From NCBI GenBank assembly GCA_018221105.1, contig JAAOYA010000008.1, forward strand, positions 64,648 to 128,647: DNA of 64,000 nucleotides. Reading direction: 5' to 3'. A model generated the notes under the pieces. It ran no database searches. It was given only the letters and a program-made list of their open reading frames with translations, and was not told the DNA's origin. The position numbers were made by a program, and so were the translations under genes. The stretch is from Candidatus Woesearchaeota archaeon. GTDB lineage: Archaea > Nanobdellota > Nanobdellia > Woesearchaeales > JAAOYA01. Below, piece after piece: positions 18,437 through 34,590 of the stretch (positions are counted from its first letter, which is position 1; each line of letters opens with the position of its first letter).

Positions 18437-18532
18437 GGGCCCGTAGCTTAGTCCGGTGGAGCGCACGACTGATAACACAGTCTAACTGTGACTGAAATCG
18501 TGAGGTCCGGAGTTCAAATCTCCGCGGGCCCA
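18437..18532 (+). tRNA. tRNA-Ile (GAU) with 22-nt canonical intron
   Basis: Acceptor GGGCCCG/CGGGCCC-A (conserved archaeal tRNA-Ile), D-arm GCUU-AGUCCGGUG-GAGC, anticodon stem CACGA/UCGUG with loop CUGAUA[intron]A, T-arm CGGAG-UUCAAAU-CUCCG. Confidence 0.75.
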
Positions 18533-18568: not shown

Positions 18569-20125
18569 TTGATGAAGGTAGAGCAAGTCACTAAAACTGG
18601 TTCTGTTGATTTAGCGCTTGACACCATTAAAATTGGCAAGCAAGCGTTAGTTTTTGTCAATACCAGGCGTAGCGCTGAAAAAGCAAGTGAGGACATTGCA
18701 AAACAAATAAAAAGTGATCAAACGCCTGAACTAGCAGATAAAGCATTGAAAGCTTTGACTAGTCCAACACGCCAATGCCGACGCTTAGCACTAGCTTTGA
18801 GAAAAGGTGTGGCATTTCACCATGCTGGCCTAACGAGTTCTCAGCGTGATTTAATAGAAGAAAACTTTCGAAGTGGCAAAATAAAGATTATTGCTGCAAC
18901 ACCAACACTAGCCTTCGGGCTAGATTTGCCAGCTTTTCGTACTATTATTCGCGACGTTAAACGTTTCGGCCAAACAAGTTGGGGTCTTAGCGATATTCCA
19001 GTGCTTGAATACCATCAAATGGCAGGTCGCGCCGGGCGGCCAGGCAAAGAAAAGTTTGGTGAAGCAATAATCGTGACAACAACACCTGAGGAAGAAGAAC
19101 GCGTCACAGAAAAATTCATTTTGGGTGACGCTGAAGAAATTTATTCCAAGCTAGCAGTAGAGCCAGCACTGCGAATTAGCCTATTATCACTTATTGCAAC
19201 ACAAATTATTAGGACAGAGCCTCACATTAAAGACTTTTACGAGAGAACATTTTGGGCACATCAGTTCAAAGACACAAAAAAACTTGAAAGCATTTTAGGC
19301 AAAGTTTTAGGATTGCTTTCAAAATGGGAATTCGTAAAAACAGAAAGCACAAGTCGTGATTTTGTTGACGCTAATGAGTTAACAGGGAAAACTGTTAATG
19401 CAACACTACTGGGAAGGCGCGTTTCACAACTTTACCTTGATCCCTTAACAGCACAATACTTAATTAATGGCTTATCAAGAGCTGACAAAAAAACCAAGAA
19501 CGTGTTTTCACTATTACAACTAATAAGTTGGACACTAGAAATGAGACCATTACTTCGCGCACGCCAAAAAGACATGCAATTAGTAACAGAGACAATAGTT
19601 GAAGAAGAAGAAAACTTATATTGCAAGCCTCCAACAATGTACGATTTTGAATACCAAGAATACTTAGATTCTGTAAAAACTACAATGTTTTTTAATGATT
19701 GGATAAACGAACAAGACGAAGAATACCTATTAGAAAATTATGACATAAGACCAGGAGAAGTAAGAAGCAAGATAGACACTGCTGATTGGATACTATACTC
19801 ACTAGAAGAAATTGCAAAACTACAAAAACAACACAATCAAGTAAGTGAAATAATTAAGCTACGATTACGACTAAAGCACGGCGCAAAAGAAGAACTACTA
19901 GCACTATTACAACTACGCAACATTGGACGCGTGAGAGCGCGAAAAATGTATTCAAACAACATCAAAACATTAAAAGATGTCAAAAAAGTCGCGCTACCAA
20001 CACTACAACAACTCTTAGGAAAACTAATAGCACTCGACATTAAAGAACAAGTAGGCGACAAAACAATTCCAGTAAAAACAAACAAGCGCAAAGGACAAAA
20101 AAACATCCAAGACTACAAAAAATGA
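18569..20125 (+). CDS. Hel308/Ski2-like helicase, C-terminal portion only (RecA2, winged-helix, ratchet and HLH domains; no RecA1)
   Basis: Begins at helicase motif IV (ALVFVNTRRSAEKASE). Contains motif V (ATPTLAFGLDLPAF) and motif VI (HQMAGRAGRPGKEKFGEAII), then Hel308-type C-terminal domains. No Walker A or DEAH box anywhere in the ORF or upstream. Confidence 0.65.
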   Translation: MMKVEQVTKTGSVDLALDTIKIGKQALVFVNTRRSAEKASEDIAKQIKSDQTPELADKALKALTSPTRQCRRLALALRKGVAFHHAGLTSSQRDLIEENFRSGKIKIIAATPTLAFGLDLPAFRTIIRDVKRFGQTSWGLSDIPVLEYHQMAGRAGRPGKEKFGEAIIVTTTPEEEERVTEKFILGDAEEIYSKLAVEPALRISLLSLIATQIIRTEPHIKDFYERTFWAHQFKDTKKLESILGKVLGLLSKWEFVKTESTSRDFVDANELTGKTVNATLLGRRVSQLYLDPLTAQYLINGLSRADKKTKNVFSLLQLISWTLEMRPLLRARQKDMQLVTETIVEEEENLYCKPPTMYDFEYQEYLDSVKTTMFFNDWINEQDEEYLLENYDIRPGEVRSKIDTADWILYSLEEIAKLQKQHNQVSEIIKLRLRLKHGAKEELLALLQLRNIGRVRARKMYSNNIKTLKDVKKVALPTLQQLLGKLIALDIKEQVGDKTIPVKTNKRKGQKNIQDYKK

Positions 20126-20768: not shown

Positions 20769-21623
20769 ATGGATTATAACAAAGTATACTTTCAAAAACC
20801 AGAAATTAAAAAATTAGTAAGTCAAGGTTACTCTTGCTATGACATGCACTTTCACACACAATACTCCGACACCAGAACAAAACTAAAATTAATTCTCAAA
20901 AAAGCAGCGCGCCAAAACACAGGACTAGCAATCACCGATCATAACGAAATTAAAGGAGCAGTACTAGCAGTTGGGAAAAAAACAGGTGTTCCAATAATAC
21001 CAGGAATGGAAGTGACTACGCGCGGCGGCTATCACATATTATTATACTTTTACGATGTCAACGAGCTCAAAGAATTCTACACAAAATACATACACCCAAA
21101 AAAAGGAAAAAATCCTAATTCAACAACCAATATTAGAACAGTAGAACTATTAGACTTAGCAAAAGCGTACAATTGCGTCACAGCAGCAGCACACCCACTA
21201 GGATTTGGACTCAACGGACTCTACAAAGCACTAAAAAAAGGAATGTTAGAACGAGAACTAACAACCAAAATAGACGCCCTAGAAGTCCTAAACAGTTCAC
21301 AACCAAAATTTTACAACAATCGCGCAATAGAACTAAACAAAAAATTACGCAAGCCAATGATTGGCGGCAGTGACGGCCACACAATAATGGAACTCAATAA
21401 CGCTTTAACTTGCACTGTAGCAAGCGATGTTGACCAATTCTTGCACAAAGTACTACGCAAGAAAGCTTTCATTGTTGGAAAAAGCGCTTCAGTATTCAAT
21501 CACGTGTTCCACCACTCAGAAAGCATAATGCAACACGCCAAATACCCAATAACAACTTTTAAGAATCAAAGCCGTATTTTCAAAAAGTTTATTAAAAAGC
21601 GCAAGATTCAACGCTCTAAATAA
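20769..21623 (+). CDS. PHP-domain metal-dependent phosphoesterase
   Basis: YDMHFHTQYSD (PHP motif I, cf. DLHVHTxxSD), ITDHNEIKG, and GSDGH near the C-terminus. Confidence 0.7.
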   Translation: MDYNKVYFQKPEIKKLVSQGYSCYDMHFHTQYSDTRTKLKLILKKAARQNTGLAITDHNEIKGAVLAVGKKTGVPIIPGMEVTTRGGYHILLYFYDVNELKEFYTKYIHPKKGKNPNSTTNIRTVELLDLAKAYNCVTAAAHPLGFGLNGLYKALKKGMLERELTTKIDALEVLNSSQPKFYNNRAIELNKKLRKPMIGGSDGHTIMELNNALTCTVASDVDQFLHKVLRKKAFIVGKSASVFNHVFHHSESIMQHAKYPITTFKNQSRIFKKFIKKRKIQRSK

Positions 21624-21629
21624 CACCAC

Positions 21630-21730
21630 GTCCCCGTCGTCTAGTCGGATAGGACGCAGGCTTGCGGAAACAAAAAACAAGTTTTTGTTGCAATAAGCCT
21701 GTAACCGGGGTTCAAATCCTCGCGGGGACG
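21630..21730 (+). tRNA. tRNA-Arg (GCG) with 28-nt canonical intron
   Basis: Acceptor GUCCCCG/CGGGGAC-G, D-arm GUCU-AGUCGGAUA-GGAC, anticodon stem CAGGC/GCCUG with loop UUGCGG[intron]A, T-arm CGGGG-UUCAAAU-CCUCG. Confidence 0.6.
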
Positions 21731-23212: not shown

Positions 23213-24976
23213 TTATTTTTTTTGTCCGTAGTAAAGGTCTTCAACTGTTTCTAAGTTGCTGATGTCATCAAGGCCTCGGTCTTCACGAAGTCGCACGAGT
23301 CGTGGAAAACGCAAGGCGTAACTGCTTTTGTATGCTGGACTTTTTTGTATTTCTTCATATCGTACTTCAATAATGATTTTTGGTTTTACTGTTACAGTTT
23401 TGCCTTTTTCTTTAATTATCAAAGGCTTCAAAAGTTCTGTTAACTGCTCAAAAGTCACACCACCCTCTTGTTCTAGTTCTTTTATTCCTGTTCCGACTTT
23501 TCCAATGTTTAGTATGTTACCGTCTTCGTCTTGGCACGCGACGGCGAAACTTGTAAGCCAACCGCTGCGTTTTCCTTCGCCCCATTCTGCTCCAACTATT
23601 ACTAGGTCTAATTCGTCCATTGTTGGCTTTATTTTTACTCCATAACCCACTCTTGAGCCTGGCTTGTAAGGACTGCTCAAATTTTTGGCCATTATTCCTT
23701 CTTCACCTGATTTTAGTGCTTGCCCGTAGAATTCTTGTGCTGCTTTAACACTGTCGGTGATTAATTGTTTTGCACATATGATTTGTTTTGGTTGCTCGTC
23801 AATAATTTTTGCGATTATCGCACGTCGTTTTTTGAATTGTTCATCAAGCAGTGTTTTTCCATTATATTGTAATATATCAAAAACGTTTACTTCAACAGGC
23901 ATTTTATCGGCTAGTTCTTTAATGCCATACTTTCGTTTAATTCTTTGTGATACTTTTTGAAATGGTAAGTATTTTCCGCTTTTTTTGTCAAATCCTACTG
24001 CTTCAGCGTCAAGAACAAAACTGTCGCCACTGACATGTTTTTTTGTGTATTCTACTACTTCTGGAAATTGTTTTGTTACTTCTTCTAAACGGCGAGTGTA
24101 CAAACTAATTTTATTGTCAACTTTGTGTACTTGCAGTCTAAAACCGTCGTACTTGTACTCAAAAGCTGCTGGTTTGCCAACTCTCTCAAAAGCGTCTTTT
24201 ATGTCTTTGGCTTTTTGGTAAAGCATTACTTTAACAGGAATTTGTGGTTTTAACTCAATTTTTTGTAATCCTTCAAGTCCTTTAGTTGAAGCAATTTTTG
24301 CTACTGTTGCAAAATCATTAGTCAAGTCAATCGCTCGTTGTACAATATCAAGGTATTCATTATATTTTGTTCTGTCTTTGTCAGGTATTACTAATTCATT
24401 TTTTTCTTTGTCATAATGAATTTTTAGTTCTTTTGAGAAGTAAGCCCATAGTATTGCGTCGCGAATGCTTCCTTCACCTATGCCAGCGCGTAATTCTTCT
24501 AGTACTGTTCGCACGATGTAGCGTGCTTCTACTGGTTTTGCACTAGTTAAAAGCTGTGCTATTAATTTAATCTTCCTGTCAACTGTTCCAGCACCTTCTA
24601 AAGTTGATAGTTTTTGCAGGTTGTCAAAAACTTGTTTAATATCAAGCTCTTGTGAAAATAGTGTTGCTTGTGTTTTCTTGCCAGCTAAATTTTCTGCTAC
24701 TATTCCTAAATCGCCTGTTTTTTTCCACTCATCCTCGATTTTTTTCGCGTCAATGCCAGTGGCCACGTTTATTGCTTTCAAGACTAGTCGTGCTGCAACT
24801 CCGAGTTTTCTTTTGTCCCACGTGGCAAACACCCTGCCGCGTAATAATAGTAGAACTGTTGAGAGGTTTTGTGAAGGCGTGTTTTTTAGTAGAACTGACA
24901 AATATTTTGTTTTTTCTAATCGTTTTGTCGTGCTAGCTATTTCTTCGTAGACTTTAACAAGAGCTGAGTATTGCAT
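23213..24976 (-). CDS. lig: ATP-dependent DNA ligase
   Basis: Adenylation motif I EYKYDGFRLQVH (KxDG), OB-fold region, 587 aa typical of archaeal Lig. Confidence 0.85.
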   Translation of the reverse strand: MQYSALVKVYEEIASTTKRLEKTKYLSVLLKNTPSQNLSTVLLLLRGRVFATWDKRKLGVAARLVLKAINVATGIDAKKIEDEWKKTGDLGIVAENLAGKKTQATLFSQELDIKQVFDNLQKLSTLEGAGTVDRKIKLIAQLLTSAKPVEARYIVRTVLEELRAGIGEGSIRDAILWAYFSKELKIHYDKEKNELVIPDKDRTKYNEYLDIVQRAIDLTNDFATVAKIASTKGLEGLQKIELKPQIPVKVMLYQKAKDIKDAFERVGKPAAFEYKYDGFRLQVHKVDNKISLYTRRLEEVTKQFPEVVEYTKKHVSGDSFVLDAEAVGFDKKSGKYLPFQKVSQRIKRKYGIKELADKMPVEVNVFDILQYNGKTLLDEQFKKRRAIIAKIIDEQPKQIICAKQLITDSVKAAQEFYGQALKSGEEGIMAKNLSSPYKPGSRVGYGVKIKPTMDELDLVIVGAEWGEGKRSGWLTSFAVACQDEDGNILNIGKVGTGIKELEQEGGVTFEQLTELLKPLIIKEKGKTVTVKPKIIIEVRYEEIQKSPAYKSSYALRFPRLVRLREDRGLDDISNLETVEDLYYGQKK

Positions 24977-25273
24977 AAGTTAGAACAGATTGGTTATTAT
25001 AAAAATGTTACTTTATTTTTTATGAATTAAAGATTTAAAAAAATTTATAAATTAGCTAATTACAAAATCCTAAATGACGGATATGAAGTATCATCTTGTT
25101 AGAACTTTAGAAAGCGATCCTAAAAAAAAGATATTCTAATATTGGGTGTAAAGCCTCACCGAGTTGATGTTTTATATCATACTTTAGGTCGAGATCGTAG
25201 AGTACTTGTTGACGAAATACCAGAAGGTGATTTGGACAAAATCATAAATGCTTATGAGAGTTCTATAAAATAA

Positions 25274-25927
25274 TTATTTTTTAAGAAGTTTTTTCCCTTT
25301 TTCTACTAAACGATTAATTTTAGGACTAAAATGTCCTATTAGGTCTTCTGGGTTTTCTAAGCGGTTGCCCCAGTTTTGCAAGTAACAAATTTGCTCTAAG
25401 CTTTTTTGCGGTGGAACTGGAACTTTTTCATCAGCGTAGCCCACAGTTATTACTGCTTGTGGTCGTACTTCTCCAATAATGCCAACAGCATCGCAGAGCA
25501 TGTTTTCTTCAAAAGCTCCAACCCAAGCAGTACCCAAATCTAGTGCTGAGGCCATAACTAAAATATTTTGTATTGCAGCTGCACAGTTTTGAATGCCATA
25601 CAATCGCTCACCGCGCAAACCATAAAAACGTTTTACATTGGCCATTTCAGCAACCACAACAATGTGTACTGGAGCATTGCTCATCCAAAATTGTTCAAGG
25701 CACGCTTCTGAAATTTTTTCTTTAATATCGTGATCTGTCACAACTATAAACTTCCAATTTTGCAAGTTACCAGAACTTGGAGCTGCTTGTGCTGCCTCGA
25801 GTAGCAACGCGATTTTTTCTTTTTCTACAGGCACCTCTAAATACTTGCGCACTGTTCGACGTTTTTTTATGATATCCAAAACTTCCATAGAAAAATTATA
25901 GAAAAGCTTGTTTAAAAAAGTTTGCAA
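25274..25927 (-). CDS. nitroreductase-family protein
   Basis: RRTVRKY...APSSGNLQNWKFIVV N-terminal nitroreductase signature; 217 aa. Confidence 0.7.
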   Translation of the reverse strand: MQTFLNKLFYNFSMEVLDIIKKRRTVRKYLEVPVEKEKIALLLEAAQAAPSSGNLQNWKFIVVTDHDIKEKISEACLEQFWMSNAPVHIVVVAEMANVKRFYGLRGERLYGIQNCAAAIQNILVMASALDLGTAWVGAFEENMLCDAVGIIGEVRPQAVITVGYADEKVPVPPQKSLEQICYLQNWGNRLENPEDLIGHFSPKINRLVEKGKKLLKK

Positions 25928-25998
25928 AAGTCATGAAAATTAAAAATTTTCAGGATGCTCAAAAACAATTAAATGTTTTTGACAAAATGGGTGCCCTT

Positions 25999-26019
25999 GT
26001 CCGGGACATTGTCCCGGGC
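25999..26019. other. GC-rich hairpin (CCGGGAC-AUU-GUCCCGG) in AT-rich intergenic DNA
   Basis: Perfect 7-bp inverted repeat inside a local GC island, 3' of ftsZ and 5' of the nitroreductase gene. Confidence 0.3.
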
Positions 26020-26100
26020 GCGGGCAGAACTCAAGTCTTTATATGTTGGGGGGGTGAACATGAGTTATTAAATAAGTCAAAAAAAAATTATGCGCTGCAC

Positions 26101-27171
26101 CTATCGTACAACGTCTATTCCAAGTTCTTGGCTTACAACAGTTGATTGCGGGCTGCCGCTTCTATTGTCAACTTTTCCAAGTATCCAAGGGCTTTTAACA
26201 CCAGTCACTATTGTCATGACAGTTAGTTTTCCTTTCATGTCTTCTGTCACGCGTGCTCCCCAAATGACTGTTGCGTCTTCGTCCATTGTCTCGGTTACTT
26301 GTTCTCCAACTTGGTTGATCTCTTCAAGTGTCAAGTCTGGCCCGCCGTGAACGTGAATAATCGCTCCTGTTGCGCCTTCGTAGTTGATGTCGAGTAGCGG
26401 GTTTGATAGTGCTCCGCGTACAGCTTCTTCTACTCTGTTGTTAGTGTCACTTGCTCCAACGCCAATTGATGCTACTCCACCACTGGTCATTATTGTTTTG
26501 ACGTCAGCATAGTCCAAGTTTACTAGGCTTGGCACTGCGATTGTTTCTACAATTCCTTTAATCATTGTAGAGATTAGTTCGTTTGCTACTGCGAATGCTT
26601 GTTGCACTGGCAGGTTTCCAGCAATTTGTACTAATCGATTGTTGTCAATTACTACTACTGTGTCTGAGACTTGTCGTAATTGTTGAAGTCCAAATTCTGC
26701 TTTGTCAATTCTTGCGCGTTCAATGTTAAATGGCATTGTTACTGTTCCAATAACTATTGCGCCCATTTCTTTTGCAACTTGTGCAATTACTGGTGCGGCT
26801 CCTGTTCCAGTGCCACCGCCCATTCCAGCACAGACAAATACCATGTCAGATGCTTTTAGCACTTCTTTTATTTGTCCCATGCTCTCTTGTGCTGCTTCGG
26901 CTCCTTTGTTTGGAAAACCGCCACAGCCCAGTCCTCTTGTCACGTCTTTTCCCAGCAAGAATTTTCTGTCAGCTTCTGTGATGTTTAAGTGTTGGCTATC
27001 AGTGTTTGTAGCTAGTATTTCTGCTCCTTTGATGCCTTTTTTGTAAAGCCAGTGTATCATGTTGCCACCAGCTCCGCCAACTCCTATTACCCTAATGTTG
27101 GCTTGTCCTACTTCGTAGGTCTCTGTTTCTTGTCCTTGTGCGTCAACCGCTTGTTTTACGATGAAATCCAT
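26101..27171 (-). CDS. ftsZ: cell division protein FtsZ
   Basis: Tubulin signature GGGTGTGAAPVIAQVAKE, NTD and VVIDN motifs; 356 aa. Confidence 0.9.
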   Translation of the reverse strand: MDFIVKQAVDAQGQETETYEVGQANIRVIGVGGAGGNMIHWLYKKGIKGAEILATNTDSQHLNITEADRKFLLGKDVTRGLGCGGFPNKGAEAAQESMGQIKEVLKASDMVFVCAGMGGGTGTGAAPVIAQVAKEMGAIVIGTVTMPFNIERARIDKAEFGLQQLRQVSDTVVVIDNNRLVQIAGNLPVQQAFAVANELISTMIKGIVETIAVPSLVNLDYADVKTIMTSGGVASIGVGASDTNNRVEEAVRGALSNPLLDINYEGATGAIIHVHGGPDLTLEEINQVGEQVTETMDEDATVIWGARVTEDMKGKLTVMTIVTGVKSPWILGKVDNRSGSPQSTVVSQELGIDVVR

Positions 27172-27221
27172 TTTTGTTCGTTCCCCCTTGATAGGTTATT
27201 TTGCAATCTAAAGGCAAGTAT

Positions 27222-27241
27222 CGAAAACTTTATATAGTAGT
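27222..27241. promoter_or_regulatory. palindromic BRE/TATA element (cgaaaactttatatagtagt), probable ftsZ promoter on the minus strand
   Basis: On the minus strand reads actactatataaag about 55-60 nt upstream of the ftsZ ATG, with a GGGGG SD-like run before the ATG. 20-mer shared with 13102-13121. Confidence 0.35.
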
Positions 27242-27490
27242 TTGCGTACTACCTTCTATAGAAAAAACATTTTTCGCCAATATTAAATTCGTCAACTCGA
27301 GACAAGTTTTCGCCAAAAAACTTTTCTCAACAAATTCTTTTATTTTAAACACATTAGAGGTATTTAAACATTATCAAGTTCTAAAACATACTTTGCAGTA
27401 TACAAATTAGTATATCAATATCTGTCAACAATAAACAATTTAATAAACTTCTAACGACAAAGACATAATAATAATCCTCGAGGGGTATTT

Positions 27491-28879
27491 GTGGTAACAG
27501 TCAAAGGCAGCATTTACGAAGGTGTAGACGGTAGAATCTTAGGATTGGGAACTTATTTTAGAAGTGAACTGCCAGAAGAACTTAAAAAAATATTAACAAC
27601 TGTTGCACGATTAAAGTATAAAGTAACACGCCACGGCAAAACAGATTTATTATTAGTCAATCACGCAGAAGATCCTGAAGAGTTAATGCATGTTTTAGCA
27701 AACGGCAATGGCAATTACACAATTTTTAGACATGTTAGTGCAGGAGGCGATTTATTGCATGCAATGGCTAATAACATTAATTTTCTTCCAGAAGACCCAC
27801 AATACACTCCAGAATCAAAAATAATCGGGCAGCGAGAGTTAGATGACTTAATAGAAGCAGCGCTTCTTGATATAGGAAAGCACGCAATAAGAAAAAACAA
27901 ACCCAAAAACGCAAAACTTCCAACAAAACACCCAAAAAAAGTTCAGAGTACAAAAACTGCTAAGATTGGAGGACTTAACTATTTGACTGACGGCAAAGGA
28001 GCATTTCATGATGGCTGTCTTTTACGATTAAATCTTGATTTTTCAAACGTCTGCCTTGGAGGTTGCGATTATTGTTATGCGAAAAGACATAATCGTGGCA
28101 GACCATTTCAAGCAAAAAGCATTGACTCACAACTTCTTGATGAGGACCTAATAAATGGATTGCAAGTTGATTACAGTCAACAACCACCAGTTTATAATCC
28201 CGAACTAGACCCTCAAGACTTTGCAGCACTACGCCTTGGCAAGAGAACAGACCCAGGACATCAAAGAGTTCACAAACAATTAATGACCACTTTAGAAGTG
28301 TTGGCAGACCACTATAAAATTAGCACTATAATGCCGACAAAAATGCTGCCCTTTAACCCTGCAATTGCAAAGCTATTACAGCAAGCAAGAGTACACTTGG
28401 CTTATAGCATAAGCCCCTGGCAGCACTTAGAGCGTGGCGCGGTCAGCGAAGGCTTTGACACTAAAACAAGATTAGAGCTTGCAAGAGACTACCAACAAGC
28501 AGGAGTCAACACTTCACTAAAAGTAATCGCCGACATCACAACAGAGCCCGATAATCTAACAAAAAAAAGAATTAGTGAAGCAATAAAAGACGGCCTGCCA
28601 ATACAATTAATACCAATAAGACCACAAAACAAAGCAATGACACCAGAACTATTAGGAGGACATCACTGGGAAGACTTCAAAGGCGATCATTCAACAATAG
28701 AACTTTTCGAAAATTTAAACCATCAAAGCGGAGACTACGCATTCTTTAACAATAAACCACTACCAACAACAATACACCCCTACTGGCAAGAAAACAAAAT
28801 AACAATATGCGGAGAACTAGTAAGTGCTAACGGCACAAAAATAACAAAAAGTTATTGCGACGATTGCAACCTAAAATGA
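27491..28879 (+). CDS. radical-SAM protein of the spore-photoproduct-lyase / 'DNA repair photolyase' type with an about 180-aa N-terminal domain of unknown function
   Basis: GTG start with GAGGGG SD 7 nt upstream. VCLGGCDYCYAK is a CX3CX2C cluster in the CxxGCxYC(Y/F) form of SplB/COG1533 proteins, placed unusually far from the N-terminus. Extra C-terminal Cys (CGEL...CDDC). Confidence 0.5.
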   Translation: MVTVKGSIYEGVDGRILGLGTYFRSELPEELKKILTTVARLKYKVTRHGKTDLLLVNHAEDPEELMHVLANGNGNYTIFRHVSAGGDLLHAMANNINFLPEDPQYTPESKIIGQRELDDLIEAALLDIGKHAIRKNKPKNAKLPTKHPKKVQSTKTAKIGGLNYLTDGKGAFHDGCLLRLNLDFSNVCLGGCDYCYAKRHNRGRPFQAKSIDSQLLDEDLINGLQVDYSQQPPVYNPELDPQDFAALRLGKRTDPGHQRVHKQLMTTLEVLADHYKISTIMPTKMLPFNPAIAKLLQQARVHLAYSISPWQHLERGAVSEGFDTKTRLELARDYQQAGVNTSLKVIADITTEPDNLTKKRISEAIKDGLPIQLIPIRPQNKAMTPELLGGHHWEDFKGDHSTIELFENLNHQSGDYAFFNNKPLPTTIHPYWQENKITICGELVSANGTKITKSYCDDCNLK

Positions 28880-30783
28880 TGCAAGAAGTAGCTCAAGGAG
28901 GATTAGAAAAAACCATTGCCACTAGTTATTCTAACATTGTTAACAGAGAATACAACATTGAATGGGCATCTATAGATAAAATAAAGCCTGATCTTGAACA
29001 ACCAAGACAACACTTAAACGAGATATCGCTTGAAGAATTAGCTCAAAGCATTGAAGCTGAAGGCCTAATAGTCCCACCAGTTGCCCAAAAAATGCCTGAT
29101 GGCACATTTGAATTAATTGTTGGTCACAGAAGATATTTTGCTTGTTTGATGAATGGTTACAATGAAATACCAATAAGAGTGGTTGAAGACATTACTGATT
29201 TAGAACGTATAGAAATACAAATACATGAAGACTCGCAAAAGCCTTTCAAGTCCTGGAAAGTAGCAGAGAACATTGTTGATTTTTTAAGATTAGCACAACA
29301 AGAAGACCCTTCTATAACACAAGAAGACGTGGCACTACATTTTGGTTATGGAAGAACATCGGTTGAAAGAGCAGTAAGATACGTTGATAAAGTAACACAA
29401 GGAGTTAAAAATCTTGTAATAGATGGAAAAATTGGTTATAAAGTTGCAGCCGATAACATCTACAAAATTCCTAGCAATCAAGACCAGTACAGGGCAGCAT
29501 TAAAAATTGCTAAAAAAGAAATAAAGCCAGAGTTAGAAGTGCAAAAACATTTACCAGAAGAAAAAAGTAAGTCCGCAGGAGATTTAGAATTAACAATTCA
29601 AACAGAAGAAGGACTAAAAGCACAAGAAGAAACTCAAAGAGTTAAAAAAGTCACGCAAGCATTAGACACTACAGTGCAAAGACTTGCAACACTACTCGCT
29701 CTTAGCAATATTAAAGATGTAACATGGGATACCATAACATCGTGTAAAGATCATTATTCAGGAGAAAGTTTAGAAGATACTATCAATAAGTTTGAAGTTT
29801 ACGTACAAGAATTGAGCGATAAATTTGAAAGCGAACCAGAAAAACTGCTTGCTCGCCAAGAACTCATACGAAAAAGAGCTCGCGTTGGAGCTCCAATAAC
29901 AGAAGTGTACAATAATGCATTAGAAAAACATGCAAAAACAAAACAAAAAACAAAAAGACCAGATTGTTTGTATGATACACTAGTAGAAAACATTCAATTA
30001 AAATTAATCGATGAAGACCCACAAAACGCTAGGGGTAATGAAACAATAACAGAAGAAAACGTTAAAGAACTCGCAAAATCAATAAAGTCAATCGGGATAA
30101 TCAATCCTTTACTATTAGAAAAAGAAGGTAAGCGCTACAATGTTGTCTTTGGACATATTAGAAGACTGGGGGCAAAAGAAGCTAAAGAAAAAACAGTTCC
30201 CGCTATAGTTGTCAATAACCTAACACGTCAGCAAAAACTTGCACTTCAAATGACAGAAGCTTCACAAAAAGCTTTTTCAGCAGAAGACAGGGCCACAGCA
30301 CACTACAAATATTATAATAGACTAAAAGAAGCTGGAGTTATTAGCTCTATTGAAGACTTTGCTCAAAGGATAGGTGTTAACGAACAAATTGCAGTTGATG
30401 CAGTACGATACAACGAACAAGTCACACAGCAAGTAAAAAAACTAGTACATTATAATGTATTGAACTATACAACCGCTTTAACACTAGCACAATTATCAGA
30501 AGAAAGACAAAACGAATTATCAGTTGAAATAGCCATAAAAAATCAAGGCTTAACAGAAACAAGAAGACTAATAAAACAAAAAAAACAATCAGAACTTTTT
30601 CCTGATGAAGTAAAAGGAATAGGAGTAGTAGTAAGTAAGCAATTAATGCAAGCAATGGAAGAATTCAACATTGCTTACGAAGAATTAAGAATGCAAGAAA
30701 ATGATTTTCATAAAAAAGCATTAAAACAAATAGCAGGACTAACAAACCAATTTGAAGAATTAAAAAAACTAAAAGCAGCATGA
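28876..30783 (+). CDS. protein with two tandem ParB/Srx-like N-terminal (ParBc) domains
   Basis: Domain 1: QPRQHLNEISLEELAQSIEAEGLIVPPVA...FELIVGHRRYFA. Domain 2: QNARGNETITEENVKELAKSIKSIGIINPLLL...YNVVFGHIRRLGA (GERR replaced by GHRR/GHIRR). ATGATGA overlap with the upstream stop. Confidence 0.6.
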   Translation: MMQEVAQGGLEKTIATSYSNIVNREYNIEWASIDKIKPDLEQPRQHLNEISLEELAQSIEAEGLIVPPVAQKMPDGTFELIVGHRRYFACLMNGYNEIPIRVVEDITDLERIEIQIHEDSQKPFKSWKVAENIVDFLRLAQQEDPSITQEDVALHFGYGRTSVERAVRYVDKVTQGVKNLVIDGKIGYKVAADNIYKIPSNQDQYRAALKIAKKEIKPELEVQKHLPEEKSKSAGDLELTIQTEEGLKAQEETQRVKKVTQALDTTVQRLATLLALSNIKDVTWDTITSCKDHYSGESLEDTINKFEVYVQELSDKFESEPEKLLARQELIRKRARVGAPITEVYNNALEKHAKTKQKTKRPDCLYDTLVENIQLKLIDEDPQNARGNETITEENVKELAKSIKSIGIINPLLLEKEGKRYNVVFGHIRRLGAKEAKEKTVPAIVVNNLTRQQKLALQMTEASQKAFSAEDRATAHYKYYNRLKEAGVISSIEDFAQRIGVNEQIAVDAVRYNEQVTQQVKKLVHYNVLNYTTALTLAQLSEERQNELSVEIAIKNQGLTETRRLIKQKKQSELFPDEVKGIGVVVSKQLMQAMEEFNIAYEELRMQENDFHKKALKQIAGLTNQFEELKKLKAA

Positions 30784-30787
30784 TAAT

Positions 30788-31753
30788 ATGAGTTCACAAC
30801 CATCAATAACCATCGATTACGAGCGAGCCACTGAAGCACTAGGATTAATTTGGCAAGCCTATGATAAAAAACAAGGTTTGTTTTCAGAACCTAAATTATT
30901 TCCACAATTAATCAGACCAAAAGGTTTAGAAGATGATGACGAGCGTTTTGCAACATACCAATTCTTTGTCAACAGTCAAGACCGCCGCCACGAAGCCAAC
31001 ATGTTATGGGGCAAAGCCAGAAAACTAACAGAAAAACAATTAGAAGAAAATGGAAAATTCATTTTTGACCCTGGACTGATTAATGCATTAAGTCTTAATA
31101 CAGTGCGTGAAACAATTGCCGACCCAATGGCTTTAAGCATGAATGGACGAGTTCAAGAACTACAAGATATAGCAACAATACTAACAACAGAATATGATGG
31201 AAGTCCATTGAACATTTTTGACGGTGTTGAACATTTTGATGAGGCAGTTAAGCGTATCAAAAGATTTCCTGGCTACGGTGAACACTTAGCGCCACAAATT
31301 ATTTGTTATTTTTCACAGCAAGGCTTTATTGAAAAACTGGAAGGCGGATATCCAAAAATTGACATTCATAAAAGCCGCATACCAATATCACTAGATTTAT
31401 TTCAAACTGGCCCTTTAGTTAATCGATTAAATGTTGAAAGAGCAGCACTAGAATTATATCAATGGTTTGCACAAGAACAAAGCATTTCTGTTTTCGAACT
31501 AACAGAAGCAGTTTGGGCTTTAGGCGCTTACGTTTGCTCTCCAAACCTTAAAAGAAAAAAAACAGCCAGTATTGGCTGTCAAAATTTGTGCCCTGCAAAA
31601 GAGTATTGCACTAGTCTGCCACCACCACCAAAAAAACAAGATTATCCGCATAAAAAAGCTACAGGCAGATATTTTCACAGAATTGATAAAAGAGACAAAC
31701 AATTAGCACTACCTCTTGGAGGCTTAGAAGCAAAACTTAATAATAGCAAATAA
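30788..31753 (+). CDS. HhH-GPD superfamily DNA glycosylase-like protein (Nth/MutY-like, no catalytic Lys) with C-terminal Cys cluster
   Basis: HhH motif KRFPGYGEHLAPQIICYF (cf. LPGVGxkTA..il), catalytic-Asp block PKIDIHKSRI (cf. VDTHVxRV), C-terminal C-x13-C-x3-C-x5-C resembling a modified [4Fe-4S] loop. 4 nt after the ParB-like gene. Confidence 0.5.
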   Translation: MSSQPSITIDYERATEALGLIWQAYDKKQGLFSEPKLFPQLIRPKGLEDDDERFATYQFFVNSQDRRHEANMLWGKARKLTEKQLEENGKFIFDPGLINALSLNTVRETIADPMALSMNGRVQELQDIATILTTEYDGSPLNIFDGVEHFDEAVKRIKRFPGYGEHLAPQIICYFSQQGFIEKLEGGYPKIDIHKSRIPISLDLFQTGPLVNRLNVERAALELYQWFAQEQSISVFELTEAVWALGAYVCSPNLKRKKTASIGCQNLCPAKEYCTSLPPPPKKQDYPHKKATGRYFHRIDKRDKQLALPLGGLEAKLNNSK

Positions 31754-31765
31754 TTCTCTCAAACC

Positions 31766-32530
31766 ATGACATTGTACATGATAGGAATAGGGCTTGGTGA
31801 CGAAAAAGGCATCACATTGCGAGGATTAGAAGCAATCAAGAGTTGCAATACTGTTTTTTTAGAAGATTACACTAGCAAACTAACAACCAGCAAAGAAACA
31901 CTAGAACAACTCTACAAAAAAGAAATCGTTTTAGCAGATCGTGAACTAGTAGAAAAAAACGCACAAGAAATATTAGAAAACGCAAAAACATCTAACGTGG
32001 CATTTTTAGTTGTTGGAGACGTTTTCGGAGCAACAACACACACAGACTTATACCTAAGAGCAAAAAAAGAAAACATCAAAGTAGAAATCGTTCATAATAC
32101 TTCAATAATCAATGCAGTATCAAGCACTGGTTTAGAATTATACAAGTTTGGAAAAACTACAAGCCTACCATACTGGGCTGACTCCTACAAACCAACAAGC
32201 ACCTATGACGACATACAAAAAAATCAGTCAATTAACCTTCACACTTTAGTGCTTTTAGATATTAAAGCCGATGAGAACAAATACATGACAGTAAACCAAG
32301 CAATAGAATTATTGTTAAAAATTGAAGATAAAAAACAACAAAAAATATTCACAACTGAAACTTTAATCATTGGTTGCGCTCGACTAAGCGCAAATGATCA
32401 AAAAATAGTTTTTGGCAGTGTTAAACAATTGTTAAACATTGATTTTGGAGCGCCATTGCACTCTTTGATAATTCCTTCTAAACTGCATTTTATTGAAGAA
32501 GAAATGATTGAGCAACACAAAATTTCTTAA
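31766..32530 (+). CDS. dph5: diphthine synthase
   Basis: MTLYMIGIGLGDEKGITLRGLEAIKSC...VAFLVVGDVFGATTHTDL...LHTLVLLDIK...YMTVNQAIELLL aligns along the full length to archaeal Dph5. Confidence 0.9.
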   Translation: MTLYMIGIGLGDEKGITLRGLEAIKSCNTVFLEDYTSKLTTSKETLEQLYKKEIVLADRELVEKNAQEILENAKTSNVAFLVVGDVFGATTHTDLYLRAKKENIKVEIVHNTSIINAVSSTGLELYKFGKTTSLPYWADSYKPTSTYDDIQKNQSINLHTLVLLDIKADENKYMTVNQAIELLLKIEDKKQQKIFTTETLIIGCARLSANDQKIVFGSVKQLLNIDFGAPLHSLIIPSKLHFIEEEMIEQHKIS

Positions 32531-33912: not shown

Positions 33913-34590
33913 ATGAAGTATGATAAAAGACTTGCAGAGTTATTAGGAATTATTTTAGGCGATGGCAATTTACACAAGACTAATAATTGTGTCACTATCG
34001 TTGGCAGCTTAGAGGATAAGCAGTATTATGAAACATATGTTATTCCATTAATAAAATCAGTATTTAATGTTAAACCTGCACTAAGAAAGCGAAATGATAG
34101 AAATGCTTATTACATTGATTTTAACTGTAAAAAAACAATTATTTATTTGACGGAAAAAGCAGGTTTAATTAGAGGTAATAAAGTTAACGCAAAAATCCCA
34201 AAACTAATTACTAATAATAAAAAATTAATCTCTCCTTTTCTAAGAGGACTATTTGATACTGATGGTTGCTTAAAATTTTCAAAACAGTCAAAAAACAAAA
34301 ATTATTATCCTAGAATCCAATATTGTTTTAGAGATACAAATTTTTCTAACAGTATTAAAGACTTAATAGAAAAACTAGATTTTAAAGTAGGAATTTGGAA
34401 AGAAAAAAGGTTTAACGGACTCATATACTATCAAATAAGCGGAAAAGAAAATCTAGAAAAGTGGATAGAACTTGTTGGAATGAATAATCCTGTTCATAAA
34501 ACTAAATATTTATTCTGGAAAAAATATGGATATTACATACCAAAATCTTCTTTAAATTATCGACAGAAAGCATTAAATTTAAATATATAA
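33913..34590 (+). CDS. free-standing double-motif LAGLIDADG homing endonuclease
   Basis: Two LAGLIDADG motifs: LAELLGIILGDGNL and FLRGLFDTDGCL; 225 aa. Confidence 0.7.
   Translation: MKYDKRLAELLGIILGDGNLHKTNNCVTIVGSLEDKQYYETYVIPLIKSVFNVKPALRKRNDRNAYYIDFNCKKTIIYLTEKAGLIRGNKVNAKIPKLITNNKKLISPFLRGLFDTDGCLKFSKQSKNKNYYPRIQYCFRDTNFSNSIKDLIEKLDFKVGIWKEKRFNGLIYYQISGKENLEKWIELVGMNNPVHKTKYLFWKKYGYYIPKSSLNYRQKALNLNI

What the first reader, a model, noticed from the sequence alone, without database searches (positions are those of the whole stretch)
27491..31753. Candidate uncharacterised DNA-processing operon: SPL-type radical-SAM enzyme with a novel N-domain, a double-ParB/Srx protein and an Nth-like glycosylase
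Three genes are packed with overlapping or 4-nt junctions (ATGATGA coupling at 28876), which implies co-translation.

(1) A radical-SAM protein whose CX3CX2C sits in the CxxGCxYCY context of spore-photoproduct-lyase / COG1533 'DNA repair photolyase' enzymes, but about 180 aa from the N-terminus, behind an unrecognised domain.

(2) A 635-aa protein made of two consecutive ParB/sulfiredoxin-type domains with the GERR arginine fingers changed to GHRR and GHIRR. ParBc domains are CTP switches or nucleases and recur in DNA-modification and defence systems (DndB, DpdB).

(3) An HhH-GPD glycosylase lacking the Nth catalytic Lys but retaining the Asp block, with a modified 4-Cys loop.

Radical-SAM chemistry, a ParB-like DNA clamp or nuclease and base excision together suggest either a lesion-repair module or a DNA base-modification or restriction-like system. 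I cannot place this combination in any named system. dph5 follows 12 nt later and may simply share the transcript.
Basis: partly seen in the sequence, partly recalled or inferred. Interest (0 to 1): 0.8.

Follow-up and report, generated by a model that had tools for sequence, protein, structure and literature searches.

The report
Archaeal radical-SAM DNA-processing gene module
Three tightly packed genes in a tiny uncultured archaeon (a photoproduct-lyase-like radical enzyme, a doubled ParB DNA-binding protein and an iron-sulfur glycosylase-like protein) recur together in related archaea and look like an undescribed DNA repair or DNA modification system whose chemistry is still unknown.

Summary
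Genes g1 (27491-28879), g2 (28876-30783) and g3 (30788-31753) are real and translationally packed.

- **g2** is an internally duplicated ParB (2 x ParB_N + HTH), with GHRR and GHIRR in place of GERR.
- **g3** has no significant database hit. Its family aligns to E. coli Nth with the HhH hairpin, the catalytic Asp and the 4-Cys loop in register, and without the Nth lysine.

Linkage is conserved. Of 18 non-redundant DPANN loci with adequate flanks, 15 carry a partner next to the radical-SAM gene: 12 an HhH-like protein and 11 a double ParB or one of two nuclease-like families. The exact triple recurs in three deeply diverged lineages. It is chromosomal and was not found by a pattern scan of viral contigs. 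It matches no PADLOC defence model, apart from a ParB-domain hit for g2.

The function was not determined. I favour radical-based DNA lesion repair, with base modification or defence a close rival. dph5 is a bystander.

The parts
27480..27485 (+). Shine-Dalgarno-like GAGGGG, 5 nt upstream of the g1 GTG start
   Evidence: Read directly from the sequence. The 462-aa product equals the NCBI annotation P0001.
27491..28879 (+). g1: SPL-like radical-SAM enzyme, 462 aa, member of an unnamed DPANN family
27491..27895 (+). g1 N-terminal domain (aa 1 to ~135): a beta-rich unit (aa 1-95) plus a long helix (aa 114-134). No known family.
   Evidence: Secondary structure from the model. Conserved across the family (A2 and A7 consensus). 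No Pfam or PDB sequence match.
28052..28075 (+). g1 cluster motif C188-x3-C192-x2-C195, with Y194 and Y196 (CxYCY)
   Evidence: C188, C192, C195 and Y196 are invariant in 60 sequences. The window protein is the only one of 91 scored members with x3 spacing; the others have x5 to x49.
28808..28867 (+). g1 C-terminal conserved cysteines C440, C456 and C459. Together with C176 they form a possible second metal site.
   Evidence: At least 90% conserved in A2. The metal and its role were not determined.
28876..30783 (+). g2: single-chain double ParB (ParB_N-HTH, ParB_N-HTH), 635 aa
   Evidence: Pfam ParB_N x2 (2.9e-29) and HTH_ParB. TIGR00180 scores 125.9 bits, above its 58.45-bit cutoff. Internal repeat E 2e-13. 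Orthologues lie next to the radical-SAM gene in L006, L031/32, L037/42 and, split into two genes, in L036.
28957..29232 (+). g2 first ParB_N domain (GHRR at aa 83-86 of the 635-aa protein)
   Evidence: Pfam stretch 35-126 of the 642-aa ORF. G83 and R86 are invariant in 4 orthologues.
29971..30258 (+). g2 second ParB_N domain (GHIRR at aa 426-430)
   Evidence: The PADLOC MTase_II ParB part and the SerK model match residues 373-468 and 381-462. G426 and R429 are invariant.
30788..31753 (+). g3: iron-sulfur HhH-GPD glycosylase-like protein, 321 aa
   Evidence: TIGR03252 E 4.9e-5. hhalign of the family against E. coli Nth gives P 1e-3 with all three motifs in register. Family members give weak hits to mutY, AGOG and DR2438. 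The top PDB profile hit is AGOG 1xqo. Homologues are adjacent to the radical-SAM gene in 10 of 18 loci.
31256..31291 (+). g3 HhH hairpin IKRFPGYGEHLA (G164 invariant; His166 in place of Nth Lys120)
31355..31369 (+). g3 Asp block K190-I-D192-I-H194 (aligned to Nth VDTH, D138)
   Evidence: K190, D192 and H194 are invariant in 9 family members. Register with Nth.
31535..31609 (+). g3 four-cysteine loop C250, C264, C268, C274 (Nth-type [4Fe-4S] cluster loop with a longer first spacer)
   Evidence: All four Cys are invariant and align to Nth C187, C194, C197 and C203.
31766..32530 (+). dph5-type methyltransferase. A neighbour 12 nt downstream, not part of the module.
   Evidence: Pfam TP_methylase 8.9e-26. 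None of the neighbour proteins scanned against Pfam in the related loci was a TP_methylase; no dedicated dph5 search of the loci was run.

Best explanation
g1, g2 and g3 form a co-translated DNA-processing module that is conserved in DPANN archaea. I am about 85% confident of this. I am about 40% confident of my preferred function, which is repair of a DNA base lesion.

Proposed mechanism:
1. **g1** binds a [4Fe-4S] cluster through C188, C192 and C195. It cleaves SAM to a 5'-deoxyadenosyl radical and abstracts a hydrogen from a damaged or cross-linked base in DNA. This is the chemistry used by spore photoproduct lyase, its closest structural relative.
2. **g3** is a [4Fe-4S] HhH-GPD protein of the monofunctional type (Asp kept, no lyase Lys). 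It finds and flips the target base, and may excise it.
3. **g2** is a pseudo-dimeric single-chain ParB. It loads the complex on duplex DNA as a clamp or as a nicking enzyme. In other lineages an HTH + Vsr-like protein or a PD-(D/E)xK protein appears to take this role.

Shown by the tests: the gene packing, the folds and motifs, and the conserved linkage.

Inferred only: the substrate, the division of labour among the three proteins, any CTP dependence, and repair rather than modification.
For: **Packing.** ATGA overlap and a 4-nt spacer.

**g1**
- Invariant cluster cysteines, plus Y194 (>=90% conserved) and Y196 (invariant), giving CxYCY.
- Confident model with a radical-SAM fold.
- Family members give weak hits to SPL, PA0069 and Rv2578c models.

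**g3.** The HhH hairpin, Asp and 4-Cys loop are colinear with E. coli Nth. Scattered hits to glycosylase models support this.

**g2.** Two ParB_N+HTH units.

**Linkage**
- The same triple, with overlapping genes, occurs in L037/L042, and in permuted order in L006. The radical-SAM proteins there are only 26-30% identical to g1.
- 15 of 18 non-redundant loci have a partner family within 3.5 kb.
- Every partner family looks like a DNA enzyme or DNA binder: HhH-like g3 and Z, ParB, HTH + Vsr-like X, and PD-(D/E)xK Y.

**Context favouring repair**
- The window neighbourhood is chromosomal and housekeeping: ATP-dependent DNA ligase, FtsZ, a Hel308-like helicase. Related loci carry aaRS and proteasome genes.
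- The gene is retained in complete genomes of 0.7-0.8 Mb.
- No relative was found by the pattern scan of viral contigs.
- No PADLOC defence model matched, apart from the ParB-domain hit.
Against: - No substrate or activity is known for any member of the family.
- g1 fails every curated threshold: Radical_SAM scores 14.2 bits against a 29.5 cutoff.
- The g3 fold rests on weak profile evidence. Its single-sequence model failed (pLDDT 34).
- The radical-SAM gene is much more diverged than its syntenic neighbours: 31% against 58-73%, and 41-43% against 72-86%. Its partner type switches within one conserved locus. That pattern is more typical of conflict systems than of classical repair genes.
- Only 4 of the 18 loci carry the double ParB.
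- Spore photoproduct itself is an unlikely lesion for non-sporulating archaea. I did not examine the habitats of these samples.
Confidence: 0.4

Rival explanations
1. This is a DNA base-modification or self/non-self (defence or epigenetic) system. g1 installs or remodels a modified base by radical chemistry. g3 acts as a reader, transglycosylase or excision enzyme for the modified or unmodified base. ParB2, X or Y is the DNA-scanning or nuclease effector.
For: - The nuclease-like partners are interchangeable (ParB2, HTH + Vsr-like X, PD-(D/E)xK Y), as effectors are in defence systems.
- The radical-SAM gene is far more diverged than flanking genes in conserved synteny, and the partner switches at a fixed locus.
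- From general knowledge, ParB/Srx-fold domains recur in Dnd, Dpd and GmrSD-type systems.
- For the bacterial SplB-like radical SAM + UDG + DUF4130 neighbourhood, Aravind et al. proposed that DUF4130 'might modify thymines' (PMC3765255).
Against: - No PADLOC match apart from the ParB domain.
- None of the neighbouring genes examined is a methyltransferase, ATPase, integrase or recognisable defence gene.
- The context is housekeeping, and the gene is kept in 0.7-0.8 Mb genomes.
- No relative was found by the pattern scan of viral contigs.
Confidence: 0.3
2. This is an RNA or tRNA modification or repair module that merely resembles DNA enzymes. g1 would modify a tRNA or rRNA base, and the partners would bind RNA.
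For: - Translation-related neighbours occur in some loci: dph5 in the window, TYW1 and TatD in L012, a class-I aaRS in L006.
Against: - These neighbours are not conserved between loci.
- From general knowledge, all the conserved partner types are typical of duplex-DNA enzymes (FeS HhH-GPD, ParB_N+HTH, Vsr-like, PD-(D/E)xK).
- The best structural match is the DNA enzyme SPL.
Confidence: 0.08
3. These are unrelated genes that happen to be adjacent: g2 is an ordinary chromosome-partition ParB, g3 an ordinary Nth paralogue, and g1 an unrelated radical-SAM enzyme.
For: - NCBI names g2 a 'ParB/RepB/Spo0J family partition protein', and it passes TIGR00180.
- The surrounding region is housekeeping.
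Against: - The adjacency recurs across lineages whose radical-SAM proteins share only 26-30% identity with g1, in three different gene orders and often with overlapping genes.
- No ORF in the window carries a ParA-type Walker A motif.
- g2 is a tandem duplication, unlike partition ParBs.
- Word-based searches for g2 and g3 find almost nothing outside these loci.
Confidence: 0.04

Closest known systems
Spore photoproduct lyase (SplB; PDB 4fhc; TIGR04070 / PF20903) and the wider COG1533 group (PA0069 and Rv2578c families)
   Same: - Cluster motif in the CxxxCxYCY context, with both tyrosines conserved.
- Family members give weak hits to SPL, PA0069 and Rv2578c models.
- The partners are DNA enzymes.
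   Different: - No curated model reaches threshold for g1.
- About 13% identity to 4fhc.
- An extra N-terminal domain of ~135 aa and a C-terminal Cys-rich region.
- Most family members carry a 5-49 residue insert between the first and second cluster Cys.
- An equivalent of the SPL hydrogen-donor Cys could not be checked.
- The hosts are not known to sporulate.
[quoted passage not shown] 2013, PMC3765255; bioRxiv 10.64898/2026.08.19.745780)
   Same: - An SplB-like radical-SAM enzyme genetically coupled to a glycosylase-fold or nucleic-acid-binding partner.
- Function still uncharacterised. The papers suggest DNA repair or thymine modification.
   Different: - The partner there is a family-4 UDG / DUF4130, not an FeS HhH-GPD protein.
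- The bacterial radical-SAM protein carries a C-terminal HHH_3 domain. g1 instead has a novel N-domain.
- g1 gave no NCBIfam match at E<=1, and the four models matched at E<=0.01 by the 60 aligned members do not include TIGR03916.
- The DPANN modules examined contain no LexA/SOS-type gene among the neighbours scanned.
- Extra ParB, X or Y partners are present.
Endonuclease III / MutY / MIG-type [4Fe-4S] HhH-GPD glycosylases and archaeal AGOG
   Same: g3 has the HhH hairpin, the catalytic Asp (D192 aligned to Nth D138) and a four-Cys loop in the same order. Like MutY and MIG, it lacks the lyase Lys.
   Different: - No Pfam HhH-GPD hit.
- About 110 extra N-terminal residues.
- First Cys spacer x7 to x13 instead of x6.
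- An invariant Lys two residues before the Asp.
- Some members add ~150 aa ending in D-I-P-F.
ParB/Spo0J CTP-dependent DNA clamps and ParB-like nucleases (PF02195)
   Same: Two bona fide ParB_N domains, each followed by a ParB-type HTH.
   Different: - Tandem duplication in one chain. In L036 it is split into two genes.
- GERRxR is altered to GHRR and GHIRR, and only the Gly and one Arg of each box are invariant.
- No ParA-type ORF in the window.
- No recognised C-terminal dimerisation domain.
- Encoded inside an enzyme operon.

Membership tests
Radical SAM superfamily | Three-cysteine [4Fe-4S] motif (canonically CX3CX2C) | tested here: met
   C188-x3-C192-x2-C195 in g1. All three are invariant in 60 homologues. 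In most relatives the first spacer is x5 to x49.
Radical SAM superfamily | Partial or full TIM-barrel core fold | tested here: met
   [not shown]
Radical SAM superfamily | Pfam PF04055 gathering score | tested here: not met
   g1 scores 14.2 bits against a 29.5 cutoff. 6 of 60 relatives hit the model at E<=0.01; the best is 3.2e-7.
Radical SAM superfamily | SAM cleavage to a 5'-deoxyadenosyl radical | not testable with these tools
   Needs anaerobic reconstitution and an activity assay.
Spore photoproduct lyase (TIGR04070 / PF20903) | Curated model thresholds | tested here: not met
   No hit for g1. One relative hits PF20903 at 2.6e-5 and one hits TIGR04070 at 2.1e-5.
Spore photoproduct lyase (TIGR04070 / PF20903) | Closest structural relative among solved radical-SAM enzymes | tested here: met
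   [not shown]
Spore photoproduct lyase (TIGR04070 / PF20903) | Radical-relay tyrosines in CxYCY and the hydrogen-donor cysteine (B. subtilis C141) | tested here: inconclusive
   Y194 is >=90% conserved and Y196 is invariant. The Cys141 equivalent could not be mapped, because no residue-level structural alignment was available.
Spore photoproduct lyase (TIGR04070 / PF20903) | Repair of 5-thyminyl-5,6-dihydrothymine | not testable with these tools
   Biochemical assay needed.
ParB/Srx (PF02195, TIGR00180) | ParB_N domain above curated thresholds | tested here: met
   Pfam 101.4 bits (cutoff 26.3), two stretches. TIGR00180 125.9 bits (cutoff 58.45).
ParB/Srx (PF02195, TIGR00180) | GERRxR arginine patch for CTP binding and hydrolysis | tested here: inconclusive
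   GHRR and GHIRR in g2. Only G83/R86 and G426/R429 are invariant in 4 orthologues. CTP binding was not tested.
Chromosome-partition ParABS | Cognate ParA ATPase encoded nearby | tested here: not met
   No ORF in the 64-kb window has a KGGxGK[ST] motif. The operon partners are enzymes.
HhH-GPD glycosylases (Nth / MutY type) | Pfam HhH-GPD (PF00730) or curated Nth/MutY model thresholds | tested here: not met
   No Pfam hit for g3 or its relatives. TIGR03252 scores 23 bits against a 136.5 cutoff.
HhH-GPD glycosylases (Nth / MutY type) | HhH hairpin followed by the catalytic Asp, in register | tested here: met
   hhalign of 9 family members against E. coli Nth, P 1e-3. FPGYGEHLA aligns to LPGVGRKTA, and KIDIH to VDTH. 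G164 and D192 are invariant.
HhH-GPD glycosylases (Nth / MutY type) | Four-Cys [4Fe-4S] cluster loop | tested here: met
   C250, C264, C268 and C274 are invariant and aligned to the Nth cysteines. The first spacer is longer.
HhH-GPD glycosylases (Nth / MutY type) | Nth-type lyase lysine (K120) | tested here: not met
   His166 in g3. Gly, Glu or Pro in relatives.
HhH-GPD glycosylases (Nth / MutY type) | HhH-GPD three-dimensional fold | tested here: inconclusive
Known anti-phage defence systems (PADLOC-DB 2.0) | Match of any component to a defence-system model | tested here: not met
   No hit for g1 or g3. g2 matches only the ParB part of an MTase_II model.
Bacterial radical SAM + UDG/DUF4130 pair (TIGR03916/03915) | Match to TIGR03916 and a UDG/DUF4130 partner | tested here: not met
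   g1 has no NCBIfam match at E<=1, and the four models matched at E<=0.01 by the 60 aligned members do not include TIGR03916. The partners are HhH-like, not UDG or DUF4130.

The most novel reading that the evidence does not exclude
The g1 family is a hub enzyme of a new DPANN-wide DNA chemistry system. It would be an SPL-like radical-SAM enzyme with a split cluster motif that performs a DNA transformation not yet described, either reversal of an unknown lesion or synthesis of a new base. It would work with an FeS HhH-GPD partner and modular nuclease or clamp partners. Many of those partners carry an SSB-tail-like C-terminal D-I-P-F peptide, which may recruit them to a common receptor. The single-chain double ParB would be a pseudo-dimeric, possibly CTP-gated, clamp that delivers the enzyme to DNA.
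Probability: 0.3. Interest if true: 0.85.

Novelty: new variant of a known kind. Interest (0 to 1): 0.68.

Why it matters
- **Only one precedent enzyme.** Spore photoproduct lyase is the only radical-SAM enzyme I know of with a proven DNA repair role (general knowledge; I did not check this systematically). A second SPL-like family hard-wired to a glycosylase-like protein and to DNA clamp or nuclease partners would widen radical DNA chemistry. It would do so in the large, uncultured DPANN radiation, whose small genomes are often described as having reduced repair capacity.
- **A defined set of genes to test.** The module gives a tractable three-gene starting point for finding a new lesion-repair reaction or a new DNA base.
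- **A natural single-chain ParB.** This is relevant to how ParB N-domain engagement and CTP gating work.
- **Sequence rules for annotation.** The family's split cluster motif (CX5-49CX2C) and the partner-specific D-I-P-F tail could be used to annotate hundreds of 'hypothetical proteins'.

Tried and rejected
**Searches that found nothing**
- Word-indexed homologue searches found almost nothing for g1, g2 or g3. The full HMMER scan was needed to find the g1 family.
- PDB sequence searches with g1, g3 and the g1 family profile gave no hits.
- The g1 N-domain profile matched nothing meaningful in PDB or Pfam.
- PADLOC gave no system.
- The viral contig scan found no relative. The BFVD fold search gave only generic phage radical-SAM proteins.
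- Literature searches found no description of this module.

**Computations that failed or were unavailable**
- The single-sequence AF2 model of g3 was useless (pLDDT 33.8). This used one of the two structure jobs, so g3 has no usable model.
- The afdb50 fold library was unavailable.
- The search for related loci with the broad alignments A2 and A3 failed because no conserved stretch was found. The tighter A4 alignment worked.

**Relationships tested and not found**
- hhalign of other unexplained neighbours (L021 307 aa, L011 266 aa, L014 and L007 220 aa, L031 187 and 318 aa, L008 168 aa) against the g3 and Z profiles showed no relationship.
- The g1 N-domain profile against family Y showed no relationship. 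So Y is not a detached N-domain.

**Ideas rejected**
- dph5 as part of the module: no TP_methylase turned up among the neighbours scanned against Pfam in the related loci.
- g1 as the diphthamide radical-SAM enzyme Dph2: g1 is a classical CX3CX2C barrel whose closest structural relative is SPL.

Full report
**1. The observation**

The three ORFs are present as described.
- g1 (27491-28879, GTG start) is preceded by GAGGGG 5 nt upstream.
- Its TGA stop overlaps the ATG of g2 at 28876 (ATGA).
- g2 ends at 30783, and g3 starts 4 nt later at 30788.
- A dph5-type methyltransferase follows 12 nt after g3.
- The sequence comes from a Candidatus Woesearchaeota MAG; the contig is 326,968 bp. NCBI annotates the same three products: two as hypothetical proteins and one as 'ParB/RepB/Spo0J family partition protein'.

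**2. g1**

On its own, g1 gives only a sub-threshold Radical_SAM hit (E 0.05, 14.2 bits against a 29.5 cutoff). It has no NCBIfam, PADLOC or PDB sequence match. The word-indexed search found one relative.

The exhaustive HMMER scan found 228 cluster representatives at E<=1e-3, and 140 at E<=1e-10. Most are about 500 aa long.

In an alignment of 60 members:
- G168, K169, C176, C188, C192, C195, Y196 and R248 are invariant.
- Y194, C440, C456 and C459 are at least 90% conserved.
- Six members hit Pfam Radical_SAM (best 3.2e-7) and one hits Pfam SPL.
- Single members hit TIGR04070 (SPL), the PA0069 family and the Rv2578c family.

The N-terminal region is a beta-rich unit (aa 1-95) followed by a long helix (aa 114-134). 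It is conserved in most of the family but matches nothing in Pfam or PDB by sequence.

One unexpected family trait concerns the cluster motif. Of 91 members with a recognisable motif, only the window protein has the canonical CX3CX2C. The others have 5-49 residues between the first and second Cys, with modes at 15, 27 and 36.

**3. g2**

- It has two ParB_N stretches (2.9e-29) and a ParB HTH. TIGR00180 scores well above its cutoff.
- The two halves align to each other across the ParB_N and HTH regions (28% identity, E 2e-13).
- The arginine boxes read GHRR and GHIRR. Among four orthologues only the Gly and one Arg of each box are invariant.
- No ORF in the window has a ParA-type Walker A motif.
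- In L036 the protein is split into two genes.
- I infer that g2 is a pseudo-dimer which could close an N-gate within one chain. Neither that nor CTP binding was tested.

**4. g3**

g3 has no Pfam or PDB hit and no relative in the word-based search. Its only hit is a weak one to TIGR03252, an HhH-GPD-type repair protein (E 4.9e-5).

Homologues recovered from related loci show these invariant residues: G164, K190, D192, H194 and four cysteines.

hhalign of nine members against E. coli Nth gives P 1e-3, with three things in register:
- the HhH hairpin,
- the catalytic Asp (D192 aligned to D138),
- all four cluster cysteines.

Nth Lys120 corresponds to His166, a position that is not conserved in the family.

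Other family members give weak hits to mutY, the AGOG-type N-glycosylase and DR2438 models. The best PDB profile hits are endonuclease III (with A5) and AGOG (with A10).

Each of these hits is weak, but they agree. The single-sequence structure model failed, so the fold itself is unconfirmed.

**5. Conserved linkage**

I collected 44 related loci: 6 by exact look-up, 10 from species-representative genomes and 29 from metagenomes; L044 is the same contig as L001. The named genomes are Woesearchaeota, Pacearchaeota and archaeon AR20. Two MAGs are labelled Methanosarcinales.

Local profile searches show these arrangements:
- radical SAM - ParB2 - g3, in the same order and with overlapping genes, in L037/L042;
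- ParB2 - radical SAM - g3 in L006;
- radical SAM - ParB2 in L031/32 and L036;
- radical SAM - g3 (long form) in L008, L009 and L019;
- g3 - radical SAM - X in L010;
- Y + radical SAM + g3 in L016, L040, L043 and L045;
- radical SAM with X and/or Z in about eight further loci.

The partner families are:
- **X**: HTH repeats plus a Vsr/DUF559-looking domain, with invariant E, D, E and H.
- **Y**: an invariant PD...TE(I/V)K signature, as in PD-(D/E)xK nucleases.
- **Z**: aligns to the HhH and Asp region of Nth, and one member hits Pfam Ogg-HhH weakly.

The fold assignments for X and Y rest on motif inspection only.

After collapsing radical-SAM proteins that are at least 90% identical, 18 loci have at least 1.5 kb of sequence on both sides:
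- 15 carry at least one partner family within 3.5 kb,
- 12 carry an HhH-like partner,
- 11 carry ParB2, X or Y,
- 3 carry none.

The radical-SAM proteins in the three triple-gene loci are only 26-30% identical. The linkage is therefore old, or has been repeatedly selected.

**6. Context**

The window around the module encodes an ATP-dependent DNA ligase, a nitroreductase, FtsZ, dph5, a glycosyltransferase, a LAGLIDADG protein, a LigT-like protein, a DEAD-box helicase and a Hel308-like helicase. Related loci carry aaRS, proteasome, SBDS, TatD and TYW1 genes. The pattern scan of viral contigs found no relative, and no PADLOC system matched. The module is therefore chromosomal, and I saw nothing pointing to a mobile element.

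**7. Features that cut the other way**

The radical-SAM gene is much more diverged than its syntenic neighbours:
- Window against L002: ligase 58%, FtsZ 73%, radical SAM 31%.
- L031 against L039/L029: upstream genes 72-86%, radical SAM 41-43%.

At this second locus the downstream partner also switches between ParB2 and X/Z. Either the whole cassette is replaced in place, or the enzyme co-evolves quickly with its partner. This pattern is more familiar from conflict systems than from repair genes.

A second oddity: of 480 ORFs in all the loci, only nine end in a D-[ILV]-P-F-like tail. All nine are partners next to the radical-SAM gene (long g3 forms, X and Y). The tail resembles the bacterial SSB C-terminal peptide (general knowledge) and suggests docking on a shared receptor. 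Window g2 and g3 lack it.

**8. Interpretation**

Well supported (about 0.85): a conserved, functionally coupled module that acts on DNA, built around a new SPL-like radical-SAM family.

The function was not determined. My estimates are:

| Reading | Confidence | Main reasons |
|---|---|---|
| Radical-based repair of a base lesion, with a BER-type partner and a loading or incision partner | 0.40 | SPL-like fold, monofunctional glycosylase-type partner, housekeeping context, retention in 0.7-0.8 Mb genomes |
| DNA base modification, or defence or epigenetic system | 0.30 | Partner swapping, fast divergence of the radical-SAM gene |
| RNA or tRNA modification | 0.08 | Some translation-related neighbours, none conserved |
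| Chance adjacency | 0.04 | Largely excluded by the conserved linkage |

**9. Comparison with known systems**

The nearest enzyme is SPL and the wider COG1533 group. The nearest system-level analogue is the bacterial SOS-linked pair of an SplB-like radical SAM with UDG/DUF4130. That pair is itself still uncharacterised (PMC3765255; bioRxiv 10.64898/2026.08.19.745780), and its partner folds and domain architecture are different.

I found no description of the DPANN module in the searchable literature.

I rate it a new variant of a known kind, namely an SPL-like radical-SAM DNA enzyme coupled to a glycosylase-fold partner. Several of its features are novel, and its chemistry is unknown.

Noticed in passing
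L009 9470-10828, L019 6681-8063, L011 10251-11108, L035 1164-2309, L016 6978-7904, L040 11581-12504(-), L043 1052-2095(-), L045 8887-9963: Of 480 ORFs in all loci, only nine end in an SSB-tail-like [DEN]x0-1[ILVMC][PL]F (for example DDIPF). All nine are partners next to the radical-SAM gene: long g3 forms, X and Y. Window g2 and g3 lack the tail. This suggests a shared docking receptor.
   Followed up: partly
window 28052-28075, and family members P0016-P0164: The g1 family usually has 5-49 residues (modes 15, 27 and 36) between the first and second cluster cysteines. The window protein is the only one of 91 scored members with the canonical CX3CX2C spacing.
   Followed up: partly
L031 8120-13842 compared with L029, L039, L027, L022; window 23213-28879 compared with L002: The radical-SAM gene is far more diverged than flanking syntenic genes (31% against 58-73%; 41-43% against 72-86%). 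The downstream partner switches between ParB2 and X/Z at the same locus. This is either cassette replacement or fast co-evolution.
   Followed up: partly
window 18437-18532 (+) and 21630-21730 (+): Rfam calls tRNAs of 96 and 101 nt, probably intron-containing archaeal tRNAs. ARAGORN gives the first an odd anticodon call and misses the second.
   Followed up: no
window 33913-34590 (+): A free-standing LAGLIDADG-type homing-endonuclease-like gene (Pfam LAGLIDADG_3, 1.2e-8) lies about 2 kb downstream of the module.
   Followed up: no
window 23213-24976 (-), 18569-20125 (+), 20769-21623 (+): An ATP-dependent DNA ligase, a Hel308-like archaeal helicase and a PHP-domain protein lie within 10 kb upstream. 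The module sits in a neighbourhood rich in DNA-metabolism genes. Ligase and FtsZ synteny is shared with L002.
   Followed up: partly
L045 11206-12366 (-): Here the g3 homologue is broken into three consecutive ORFs (117, 104 and 180 aa). It is either a pseudogene or a set of assembly frameshifts.
   Followed up: no
L036 1128-3179: The double ParB is encoded as two separate genes (325 and 350 aa), one per ParB_N-HTH unit. This is consistent with a heterodimer ancestor of the fused g2.
   Followed up: no
L008 and L009 (CAYMFI010000029.1, CAZXME010000011.1): Two MAGs labelled 'uncultured Methanosarcinales archaeon' carry the radical SAM + long g3 pair that is otherwise found only in DPANN genomes. 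This may be mis-binning or lateral transfer.
   Followed up: no
window 28016-28018 (C176) and 28808-28867 (C440, C456, C459): g1 has four further conserved cysteines outside the SAM cluster motif. They could form a zinc site or an auxiliary Fe-S site. SPL has no such site.
   Followed up: no
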